This document shows, one piece after another, positions 10,167 to 27,812 of a stretch of DNA of 64,000 nt. This DNA comes from the human T2T-CHM13v2.0 reference genome, Homo sapiens. Each line of letters begins with the position of its first letter. Within the stretch, counting starts at the first letter, position 1. Where the stretch lies: assembly GCF_009914755.1 (NCBI RefSeq), contig NC_060943.1. One strand, given 5' to 3'. A model generated the notes under the pieces. The model was not told the origin of the DNA and ran no database searches. It saw nothing but the letters and a program-made list of their open reading frames with translations. The translations under genes were made by a program, and so were the position numbers.

Positions 10167-12124
<1,958 letters not shown>

Positions 12125-12334
12125 CCCCACCGTGGAGTCCTCCTCCTTGCGGAACACCTTGCCGATCTTCTTAAATGTCCCCACGGGCTTTAGGGCTTCC
12201 ACGAGGACGTCCAAATCCACATCTTTGCAGACATCGGGGACGCTCCAAAGAATGAGGCAGTCGGGGGACGGCAGGAAGCCCCAGGGGAACCAGCCCCCCA
12301 CGTGGCTTTTCTCGAGAGTCTTTAAGATCTCCAG
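12125..12334 (-). CDS. CCDC8: Probable CUG-initiated 70-aa N-terminal extension of CCDC8 (608-aa proteoform)
   Basis: In-frame CTG at 12334-12332 in context atcACC-CTG-Gag (A at -3, G at +4). No stop before the AUG; the nearest upstream in-frame stop is TAG at 12376-12374. The extension aligns with the N-terminal domain of PNMA8C in this window. Confidence 0.75.
12190..12234 (-). other. Out-of-frame 14-aa uORF (MSAKMWIWTSSWKP*) between the CUG and the annotated AUG of CCDC8
   Basis: ATGs at 12234 and 12222 (the second has A at -3) in the same +1 frame, TAA at 12192-12190. Confidence 0.6.
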
Positions 12335-12559
12335 GGTGATATCTGGGGTGAGGGGGCAATGAGCCCCAACAAACTACTGTAGCCCTTAGTCTTGAGGGAG
12401 GGACTGGATGGGGGGAGTTCCAGCAACGCTGACCGGAGAGTCTCACCTCCCTAGCCAGGGACGAGCCAAACGCCTCCAATCTCTTCGCCTGCAACAAGTA
12501 CAGTCTTGACCAAGTCCGGCTCCCCCACCAAGGACTTGGGGGAATCAATTTCCAGGATG

Positions 12560-13100
12560 CCTACGTGAGCCGGGGGCGAGGTCAGTCCCAAGGCTCAAGG
12601 CCCACTCCAAGCTGGAAACGTGGTGTCCCAGCTCCAAGCTGGGGCGCGCGGGCTGCCAGCGACTCTTCCTGCCCCAGGCCCCAGGGACGCGGCTGGAACT
12701 TGGGACAGGACTTCGCAGACAAAGACGGTCCAGTCGAAGCTATTCAATATGGCCGAGGCGCTGGGAGGCCCCAGCCCGGGCCTCCAGTAGGGTCCCCCGC
12801 CCCCAGGCAGGCCGCCACCCAGCTCCAGGCTGACCTTGACGCGCCGCAGCCTGCCAGCCCGCGCGCTTAGAGCTCTGCACCGTGGAGCGCGCGGGCAGGA
12901 AGTTCCTCCTCGCCCTCCGCCAGAATGAGGCCCACCTTCCCCCGTCTCATCTTACACTCCCAGACTCTGGAAGACTGACAGGGGGGCTGTCCACTCCCTT
13001 CGGGGCGGCCTCCTTCCCCTCCCCCACAGGGGTGTGGCCGCGCCCCGGGCCTAGCTGGGCCCATTGCTTCCCAGCGAAGCGGCAGTGGCCCACGTCAGCA
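12560..13100 (-). promoter_or_regulatory. CpG/GC-rich CCDC8 promoter and 5' leader
   Basis: High CpG density with gcgcgc runs. No minus-strand ATG from 12947 down to 12235. Confidence 0.6.

Positions 13101-27095: not shown

Positions 27096-27812
<717 letters not shown>

What the first reader, a model, noticed from the sequence alone, without database searches (positions are those of the whole stretch)
12125..12334. CCDC8 is probably CUG-initiated: the annotated AUG cuts the PNMA domain in half
Seen: the 70 codons upstream of the AUG encode LEILKTLEKSHVGGWFPWGFLPSPDCLILWSVPDVCKDVDLDVLVEALKPVGTFKKIGKVFRKEEDSTVG. The part CLILWSVPDVC..ALKPVGTFKKIGKVF aligns almost gap-free with PNMA8[27 protein letters not shown] and runs on into [17 protein letters not shown] vs [17 protein letters not shown]. 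The CTG has A-3/G+4. The leader has no AUG for about 610 nt up to the CTG; two out-of-frame AUGs then appear before the annotated start and would trap scanning ribosomes. Inference: the main product is 608 aa with an intact RRM-like domain, so '5'UTR' variants here could be coding variants relevant to 3-M syndrome. I recall non-AUG CCDC8 extensions appearing in ribosome-profiling surveys, so novelty needs checking.
Basis: partly seen in the sequence, partly recalled or inferred. Interest (0 to 1): 0.8.

Follow-up and report, generated by a model that had tools for sequence, protein, structure and literature searches.

The report
CCDC8 starts at upstream CUG codon
The human growth gene CCDC8 is very probably translated from a CUG codon 70 codons upstream of its listed AUG, which completes a folded N-terminal domain; this is correct but already published and already modelled in GENCODE.

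Summary
Upstream of the RefSeq AUG (12124, minus strand) the frame stays open for 83 codons. A CTG at 12334 sits in the context ACC|CTG|G. The 70 "5'UTR" codons alone match Pfam PNMA_N (PF20846) at E 3e-5. The 608-aa form scores 50 bits against a cut-off of 27, while the annotated 538-aa form scores 14 bits and keeps only profile positions 67-92. In 13 mammalian orthologues annotated with this segment, identity to human is 51/66 to 70/70 and collapses just upstream of the CTG. Four geomyoid rodents have Met exactly at the CTG codon, and 10 of 13 lack Met at the human AUG position.

It is not new. Fedorova et al. 2022 (PMC9789052) gave CCDC8 the top PhyloCSF score, reported Ribo-seq support and a CUG start, and GENCODE added a model. 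Rodriguez et al. 2024 (PMC11317171) described the same 70 residues, the conserved CTG, a peptide and the completed PNMA RRM-like domain. RefSeq (NM_032040.5) still starts at the AUG.

Corrections: the CTG lies 544 nt, not about 610, from the transcript start. The two out-of-frame AUGs form a 14-codon uORF that ends 65 nt before the AUG, so it is a hurdle and not a trap.

The parts
12332..12334 (-). CUG (CTG) start codon of the extended proteoform, context ATCACC|CTG|G
   Evidence: One search gives the context. In one search the aligned residue is Leu in 7 of 13 orthologue rows, Met in 4 of 13 (the protein starts exactly there), Val in 1 of 13 and a gap in 1 of 13. A CUG start is stated in PMC9789052 and PMC11317171.
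12125..12334 (-). 70-codon N-terminal extension, annotated as 5'UTR in RefSeq
   Evidence: Searches give the translation. Pfam PF20846 positions 9-63, E 3.2e-5, on this piece alone. Identity to human is 58-70 of 70 in 12 orthologues. GC at third codon positions is 0.81, against 0.58 and 0.36 in the other two frames.
12044..12283 (-). PNMA_N (PF20846) RRM-like domain match, straddling the annotated AUG
   Evidence: Six-frame genome search: 54.1 bits, profile positions 12-92 of 92 (chr19:49240044-49240283). hmmscan on the 608-aa form: residues 21-97, 50 bits, E 4.2e-13.
12122..12124 (-). RefSeq-annotated AUG (context GGG|ATG|C), which is residue 71 of the CUG form
   Evidence: It lies inside predicted strand 67-74 of the model. 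The aligned residue is Leu or Val, not Met, in 10 of 13 orthologue rows.
12190..12234 (-). Out-of-frame uORF inside the extension (AUGs at 12234 and 12222; 14 or 10 codons plus stop)
   Evidence: It ends 65 nt upstream of the annotated AUG.
12335..12878 (-). 544-nt AUG-free leader upstream of the CUG. The whole leader to the annotated AUG, 12125-12878, is 63% G+C
   Evidence: There is no ATG in the first 644 nt, against 4.7 +/- 1.6 in shuffles; 0.1% of 2000 shuffles had none.
12374..12376 (-). In-frame TAG that closes the open frame 13 codons upstream of the CUG
10508..12334 (-). Full 608-codon ORF plus stop of the CUG-initiated CCDC8 proteoform

Best explanation
CCDC8 is a single-exon, Gag-derived gene of the PNMA family. 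Its functional protein starts at the CUG at 12334, not at the RefSeq AUG at 12124.

Proposed mechanism (the sequence features are shown here; the translation steps are inferred):
- Scanning ribosomes cross a 544-nt leader that contains no AUG.
- They initiate, presumably with initiator Met-tRNA, at a CUG in the optimal context ACC-CUG-G.
- Ribosomes that leak past the CUG meet a short out-of-frame uORF (12234-12190). Some may then initiate at the AUG and make a 538-aa form. That form lacks the first two strands, the first helix and half of the third strand of the domain, so it is unlikely to fold there.

The domain match, its disruption by the AUG, amino-acid conservation that begins at the CUG codon, and loss of the AUG in other mammals are all shown here. 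Actual initiation at the CUG rests on published Ribo-seq, PhyloCSF and one peptide. That the long form dominates is inferred.
For: - Pfam PF20846: the 608-aa form scores 50 bits (E 4.2e-13, profile 15-92 of 92, cut-off 27). The 538-aa form scores 14.2 bits (profile 67-92), below the cut-off.
- The 'UTR' piece alone scores 24.7 bits, E 3.2e-5, profile 9-63.
- All 10 aligned human PNMA paralogues carry the domain from their own Met. CCDC8's CUG lies one codon upstream of the position of PNMA8C's Met.
- Orthologues: 13 of the 120 listed proteins cover at least 90% of residues 1-110.
- In those 13, extension identity to human is 58-70 of 70 in 12 rows and 51/66 in a LOW QUALITY row. This compares with 52-76% identity for residues 161-621 of the human open frame (the 83 upstream codons plus the 538-aa protein) and 0-6 of at most 13 residues upstream of the CUG.
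- Thomomys, two Dipodomys species and Perognathus begin with Met exactly at the CUG codon. 10 of 13 rows have Leu or Val at the human AUG position.
- The leader is depleted of AUG.
- In the AF2 model the AUG falls inside strand 67-74.
- Papers, read as passages: CCDC8 has the highest PhyloCSF score (2693.9) of PhyloSET and is in both PhyloSET and RiboSET; a CUG model was added to GENCODE for human, and one for mouse was announced for the next release (PMC9789052). The 70 residues are conserved across 241 mammals, the CTG is conserved with a strong Kozak motif, a peptide was detected, and the PNMA RRM-like domain is completed (PMC11317171).
Against: - I saw no measurement of the ratio of CUG to AUG initiation.
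- The 13 orthologue rows are a biased sample. Annotation pipelines are forced upstream precisely when the AUG is missing.
- The other 107 of the 120 listed proteins cover only 36-38% of residues 1-110, consistent with annotation from the AUG. So most mammals appear to keep that AUG.
- The uORF ends 65 nt before the AUG, so reinitiation could give appreciable 538-aa protein.
- The RNA downstream of the CUG shows no unusual structure of the kind that can enhance initiation at weak start codons (a mechanism recalled, not from a call): z = +0.82, and 160 of 200 shuffles fold at least as well.
- The structure model has low confidence (mean pLDDT 58, pTM 0.47). No PDB match reached E <= 0.001.
- The first 8-14 profile positions of PNMA_N are not matched.
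- Only one peptide is mentioned in the legend, and I could not see which one (figure and supplements not held).
Confidence: 0.88

Rival explanations
1. The RefSeq model is essentially right. The AUG at 12124 gives the main, functional 538-aa protein, and the CUG form is a minor by-product of leaky non-AUG initiation.
For: - 107 of the 120 listed orthologue proteins cover only 36-38% of residues 1-110, consistent with starting at that Met.
- CUG codons generally initiate less efficiently than AUG (established knowledge).
- The uORF stops 65 nt before the AUG, allowing reinitiation.
- GENCODE kept the AUG model and added the CUG one alongside it.
- RefSeq's 'select' transcript NM_032040.5 uses the AUG.
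Against: - The AUG form retains only profile positions 67-92 of a 92-position domain and falls below Pfam's cut-off.
- The extension is conserved as well as or better than the annotated N-terminus: 58-70 of 70 against 54-73 of 77 for residues 84-160 of the same open frame.
- The AUG position is Leu or Val in 10 of 13 rows from 8 genera, so those species cannot make the short form from that codon.
- The published PhyloCSF score of the extension is the highest of the set.
Confidence: 0.08
2. The extension is translated, but from another near-cognate codon in the open frame, for example ATC 12340, ATC 12328 or GTG 12301, rather than the CTG at 12334.
For: Several in-frame near-cognate codons exist. 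PMC9789052 notes that exact non-AUG starts are hard to place. Scotinomys has Val at the CTG position.
Against: - Among in-frame near-cognate codons upstream of 12221, only CTG 12334 has both A/G at -3 and G at +4.
- Conservation collapses immediately upstream of it.
- Four rodent proteins start with Met at exactly this codon.
- Both papers name the CUG/CTG.
- A start at GTG 12301 would remove 11 conserved residues.
Confidence: 0.03
3. The segment is an untranslated relic of the ancestral PNMA domain, conserved only as a regulatory leader.
For: RefSeq annotates it as 5'UTR. No AUG opens it.
Against: An untranslated relic would accumulate stops and frameshifts. Instead the frame is intact in 12 of 13 orthologue rows, with one 1-residue deletion and indels only in a LOW QUALITY row. 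Third-position G+C is 0.81 in this frame only. A peptide and ribosome footprints are reported.
Confidence: 0.01

Closest known systems
PNMA8C and PNMA8A (neighbouring genes; PNMA8C lies in this window at 27096-27710, minus strand)
   Same: They share the same N-terminal PNMA_N domain: 102 bits for PNMA8C, and 35% identity over 119 columns, E 1e-28. They lie in the same chr19 cluster. They have no capsid domains (PMC10945824). Their start positions fall within one or two codons of the CCDC8 CUG in the alignment.
   Different: They start at AUG. CCDC8 has a CTG near that place and a different, repeat-rich C-terminal tail. CCDC8 is described as widely expressed, unlike PNMA genes, which are said to be generally restricted to brain and testis (PMC11317171).
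Conserved non-AUG N-terminal extensions now modelled by GENCODE (for example VANGL2 AUA, FXR2 GUG, SFPQ, H1-10 CUG, CYTH2 CUG)
   Same: Each has an in-frame extension from a near-cognate codon in a good Kozak context, purifying selection on the extension, and Ribo-seq and/or peptide support. CCDC8 is listed among them.
   Different: CCDC8 has the highest PhyloCSF score of the set. Its extension completes a recognisable domain that the annotated start cuts; PMC11317171 makes a similar argument for HELZ2.
Genes known to rely on non-AUG starts, such as EIF4G2 and TEAD1 (named in PMC11317171)
   Same: The start codon is a conserved non-AUG codon. In 10 of 13 orthologue rows examined, CCDC8 has no Met at the position of the human annotated AUG.
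   Different: Human CCDC8 keeps an in-frame AUG 70 codons downstream, so a second, shorter product is possible.

Membership tests
PNMA_N (Pfam PF20846), the N-terminal RRM-like domain of the PNMA family | Match to the family HMM above the curated gathering score (27 bits) | tested here: met
   The CUG-initiated 608-aa form scores 50 bits, E 4.2e-13, and 54.1 bits in the six-frame genome search. The annotated 538-aa form does not meet it: 14.2 bits.
PNMA_N (Pfam PF20846), the N-terminal RRM-like domain of the PNMA family | Coverage of the whole 92-position profile | tested here: inconclusive
   Profile positions matched are 15-92, 12-92 and 9-63 for the extension alone. The first 8-14 positions are not matched, although residues 1-20 align without gaps to the paralogues, including the conserved Trp.
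PNMA_N (Pfam PF20846), the N-terminal RRM-like domain of the PNMA family | RRM-like beta-alpha-beta fold | tested here: inconclusive
   The AF2 model from 21 sequences has mean pLDDT 58 and pTM 0.47. Its elements are strand 26-31, helices 34-38 and 41-47, and strands 54-62, 67-74, 86-89 and 92-99. Foldseek against the PDB found 0 matches at E <= 0.001. The top list is mostly RRM domains at E 0.009-0.18. PMC11317171 reports the completed domain on an AlphaFold model of a lynx orthologue.
PNMA gene family (domesticated Ty3/mdg4 Gag) | Genomic clustering and paralogy with PNMA genes | tested here: met
   16 PNMA_N loci were found in the reference genome. CCDC8 lies in the chr19 cluster with PNMA8A, PNMA8B and PNMA8C. 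The same is stated in PMC10945824.
Capsid-forming PNMA proteins (PNMA2-like) | Gag capsid N- and C-terminal domains | tested here: not met
   The 608-aa form has no Pfam match other than PNMA_N and a sub-threshold Clr5 hit. PMC10945824 states that CCDC8 and PNMA8a/b/c lack the capsid domains.
Conserved non-AUG-initiated N-terminally extended proteoforms | In-frame open extension with no AUG, headed by a near-cognate codon in a strong Kozak context | tested here: met
   83 open codons; CTG with A at -3 and G at +4; no in-frame AUG upstream of 12124.
Conserved non-AUG-initiated N-terminally extended proteoforms | Protein-level purifying selection on the extension that starts at the proposed codon | tested here: met
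   Identity is 58-70 of 70 in 12 orthologues and 0-6 of at most 13 residues upstream. Codon-level PhyloCSF was not computed here because no other mammalian DNA was available; the published value is 2693.9.
Conserved non-AUG-initiated N-terminally extended proteoforms | Ribosome footprints and peptides from the extension | not testable with these tools
   Reported in PMC9789052 (RiboSET, Fig. 3a legend) and PMC11317171 (a detected peptide, Fig. 4A legend). Figures and supplements were not visible to me.
Conserved non-AUG-initiated N-terminally extended proteoforms | Start codon mapped experimentally (initiation profiling, N-terminal peptide or mutagenesis) | not tested
   No such experiment for CCDC8 appeared in the passages read or in the searches made.

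The most novel reading that the evidence does not exclude
The 538-aa protein used for clinical numbering, and (recalled, not checked) probably in most functional work on the 3M complex, may be a minor product with half a domain. If so, the RRM-like domain completed by the extension would carry an unstudied function of CCDC8. Start-loss (CTG) or missense variants in 12125-12334, now filed as 5'UTR by RefSeq-based pipelines, would be an unrecognised class of 3-M syndrome alleles.
Probability: 0.2. Interest if true: 0.55.

Novelty: already known. Interest (0 to 1): 0.2.

Why it matters
CCDC8 is one of the three 3-M syndrome genes. RefSeq, and therefore much variant annotation, still treats 210 coding bases as 5'UTR (NM_032040.5). 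Variants there, including loss of the CTG, would be misclassified. Expression constructs built from the AUG lack half of the only folded domain.

The practical value is as a reminder to use the GENCODE CUG model. As a discovery it adds nothing to PMC9789052 and PMC11317171, apart from the simple cross-check that four rodent species carry an AUG at the CUG codon and that 10 of 13 orthologue rows (8 genera) lack the annotated AUG.

Tried and rejected
- RNA structure downstream of the CUG. I tested 12345-12235 as a possible enhancer of non-AUG initiation. The minimum free energy was -32.7 kcal/mol against -35.8 +/- 3.8 for shuffles (z = +0.82), so there is no support.
- Fold comparison with solved structures. 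The model is low-confidence (pLDDT 58) and no PDB match reached E <= 0.001. RRM domains head the list only weakly.
- Other reading frames and the plus strand over the segment. 3 of 3 ORFs had no Pfam match. The ORF listing starts only at ATG, GTG or TTG, so it reports the frame from GTG 12301 (597 aa) and cannot show the CTG.
- 3-M variants in the leader. A search for CCDC8 + 3-M syndrome + untranslated gave 5 papers, none in its listing about leader variants. The knockout-mouse letter (PMC10423707, passages only) cites c.612insG and a deletion flanking the ORF. Neither separates the two starts.
- The original CCDC8 paper (PMC3135816) is not held.
- Codon-level conservation could not be computed, because no non-human mammalian DNA is reachable here. 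I used annotated orthologue proteins instead.
- Rows dropped. From the 13 extended orthologues, alignment A2 used 10. I left out P0005 and P0009 as congeners and P0013 as low quality.
- Loci dropped. From the 16 PNMA_N loci, 10 paralogues were aligned. I left out L004 (a second PNMA6A-type copy whose printed open-frame N-terminus is the same as L003's), L008, L014 and L016 (pseudogene or fragment), L009 (no Met at the family position) and L015 (CCDC8 itself).
- Supplements were closed. The peptide's identity, CCDC8's Ribo-seq rank and the RiboSET ClinVar list (Supplementary Data 9 of PMC9789052) were not seen.
- Papers. PMC9789052, PMC11317171, PMC11299033, PMC10945824 and PMC10423707 were read as passages found by term, not as whole texts.

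Full report
**What is in the sequence.** CCDC8 is a single-exon gene on the minus strand, 12878-9640. RefSeq has one transcript, NM_032040.5, with its CDS at 12124-10508. Reading upstream of the annotated AUG, the frame stays open for 83 codons back to a TAG at 12376. Seventy codons upstream of the AUG lies a CTG (12334-12332) in the context ATCACC|CTG|G, with A at -3 and G at +4.

Measured from the RefSeq transcript start, 544 nt precede the CTG, not about 610. The first AUG of any frame appears after 644 nt. Zero AUGs in 644 nt compares with 4.7 +/- 1.6 in 2000 dinucleotide-preserving shuffles, and only 0.1% of shuffles had none.

The two out-of-frame AUGs are real (12234 and 12222). They share one frame and open a 14- or 10-codon uORF that ends at 12190, 65 nt before the annotated AUG. 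This makes it a hurdle with room for reinitiation, not a trap that overlaps the start.

**Is the similarity more than chance?** Yes.
- The same piece matches PNMA8C by BLASTP at E 1e-5.
- The 608-aa form scores 50 bits (E 4.2e-13, profile 15-92), above the 27-bit cut-off. The annotated 538-aa form keeps only profile positions 67-92 and scores 14.2 bits, below the cut-off.
- A six-frame search of the reference genome places the domain at window 12044-12283, straddling the AUG.
- Three ORFs in other frames or on the plus strand over the same DNA match no Pfam family.
- G+C at third codon positions is 0.81 in this frame, against 0.58 and 0.36 in the other two.

**Paralogues.** The genome search found 16 PNMA_N loci: PNMA1, 2, 3, 5, 6A and a second copy, 6E, 6F, MOAP1, 8A, 8B, 8C, CCDC8, and three pseudogene or fragment copies.

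In 9 of the 10 aligned protein-coding paralogues, the domain match begins at the gene's own Met or within four codons of it. In PNMA8C it begins seven codons after the Met. PNMA6F is another exception and was not aligned (see "Noticed in passing").

I aligned CCDC8's open frame with those ten paralogues. The extension aligns without internal gaps to their N-termini, including the family's conserved Trp. Residues 23-140 of the CUG form align to residues 22-140 of PNMA8C with one single-residue gap, 35% identity, E 1e-28. The CUG therefore sits one codon upstream of the position of PNMA8C's Met.

**Orthologues.** A protein search restricted to residues 1-110 of the CUG form listed 120 of the 156 hits (168 candidates were scored). 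A further 120 candidates known from samples alone, or of untold source, were left out before scoring. Thirteen of the listed proteins cover at least 90% of the query. The other 107 cover 36-38%, consistent with annotation from the AUG.

In the 13 extended rows:
- Identity to human over the 70 codons is 58-70 of 70 in 12 rows, and 51/66 in a row labelled LOW QUALITY.
- Counting from the first of the 83 upstream codons of the human open frame, residues 84-160 show 54-73 of 70-77 aligned residues identical, and residues 161-621 show 52-76%.
- In the 13 codons upstream of the CTG, only 0-6 residues match.
- The sequences further upstream in these annotations are unrelated to each other.
- At the CTG codon the rows read Leu in 7, Met in 4, Val in 1 and a gap in 1. 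The four Met rows are Thomomys, two Dipodomys species and Perognathus, whose proteins begin exactly there.
- At the human AUG position 10 of 13 rows, from 8 genera, read Leu or Val.

The sample is biased, since pipelines look upstream when the AUG is absent. It still shows that several lineages cannot make the short form from that codon yet keep the extension intact.

**Structure.** An AlphaFold2 model of residues 1-140, built from 21 sequences, has low confidence (mean pLDDT 58, pTM 0.47). It gives strand 26-31, helices 34-38 and 41-47, strands 54-62, 67-74, 86-89 and 92-99, and then helices 104-117 and 122-131. Residue 71, the annotated Met, lies inside the third strand. Foldseek against the PDB found nothing at E <= 0.001, and RRM domains dominate the weak list at E 0.009-0.18. 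This is compatible with "RRM-like" but is not proof.

**Mechanism.** The best-supported reading is cap-dependent scanning through an AUG-free leader and initiation at an optimally placed CUG. That gives a 608-aa protein with an intact PNMA_N domain. Leaky scanning, uORF translation and reinitiation may add some 538-aa protein. I found no special RNA structure downstream of the CUG. The relative yield of the two forms was not measured in anything I saw.

**Comparison with the literature.** The finding is already in print.
- PMC9789052 (Nat Commun 2022, passages read) reports that CCDC8 has the highest PhyloCSF score of its 60-gene PhyloSET (2693.9). The score turns positive at the border of the extension. 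CCDC8 is one of eight genes also in the Ribo-seq set. GENCODE introduced a CUG-initiated model for human, and the passage says one for mouse would follow in the next release, while keeping the AUG model.
[quoted passage not shown] - PMC10945824 places CCDC8 with PNMA8a/b/c as PNMA members that lack capsid domains.
- Searches for CCDC8 with "non-AUG", "N-terminal extension", "CUG" and "RRM-like" returned no paper with a functional test of the long form.
- On the clinical point, PMC9789052 states that among PhyloSET primary extensions only GDF5OS carried ClinVar pathogenic or likely pathogenic variants, in a ClinVar file of October 2022. The RiboSET list is in a supplement that I could not open.

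**Verdict.** The novelty is nil. What remains useful is that RefSeq still lacks the CUG model, and that nobody in the searched literature appears to have compared the two forms functionally.

**Noticed in passing.**
- An unannotated PNMA8B-like PNMA_N copy lies outside the window.
- PNMA6F reads Ile where its relatives have the initiator Met.
- CCDC8 has a 24-nt tandem-repeat block in its coding region, and orthologue lengths vary from 442 to 862 aa.

Noticed in passing
L014 (G000 chr19:49359295-49359543, plus strand; outside the window): A PNMA_N domain copy (78.9 bits, profile 10-92) sits in a 206-codon open frame closest in sequence to PNMA8B. It lies on the strand opposite the transcribed pseudogene PPP5D1P, with no gene annotated on its own strand. 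It is probably part of a duplicated PNMA8B-PPP5C segment.
   Followed up: no
L009 (PNMA6F, G000 chrX:151587940-151588215, minus strand): Where PNMA6E and the other paralogues have the initiator Met at profile position 1, PNMA6F reads Ile. The first Met comes four codons later. This may be another shifted or non-AUG start in the family.
   Followed up: no
window 10787-11244, minus-strand coding region of CCDC8: A tandem array with a 24-nt period (14.7 copies, 70% matches) and a 72-nt higher-order period (5.1 copies, 85% matches) lies in the CDS. Orthologue proteins range from 442 to 862 aa, with visibly different numbers of the corresponding 8-residue repeats.
   Followed up: partly
window 12190-12234, minus strand: A 14-codon out-of-frame uORF is nested in the extension. 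Judging from orthologue residues, its first AUG cannot exist in Ochotona, Suncus or Perognathus, nor its second in Tamandua. It is therefore not universally conserved.
   Followed up: partly
L016 (G000 chr1:73624289-73624450, plus strand): A short PNMA_N-like fragment (28.9 bits, profile 10-62) has two stops inside and no gene annotated. It is a decayed copy.
   Followed up: no
PMC11317171, section 23 (a paper, not the window): One passage lists the CCDC8 extension as conserved to 'fish', while another speaks of eutherian mammals. PMC10945824 places the PNMA expansion in eutherians. All 120 hits listed were mammals. The 'fish' statement was not checked.
   Followed up: no
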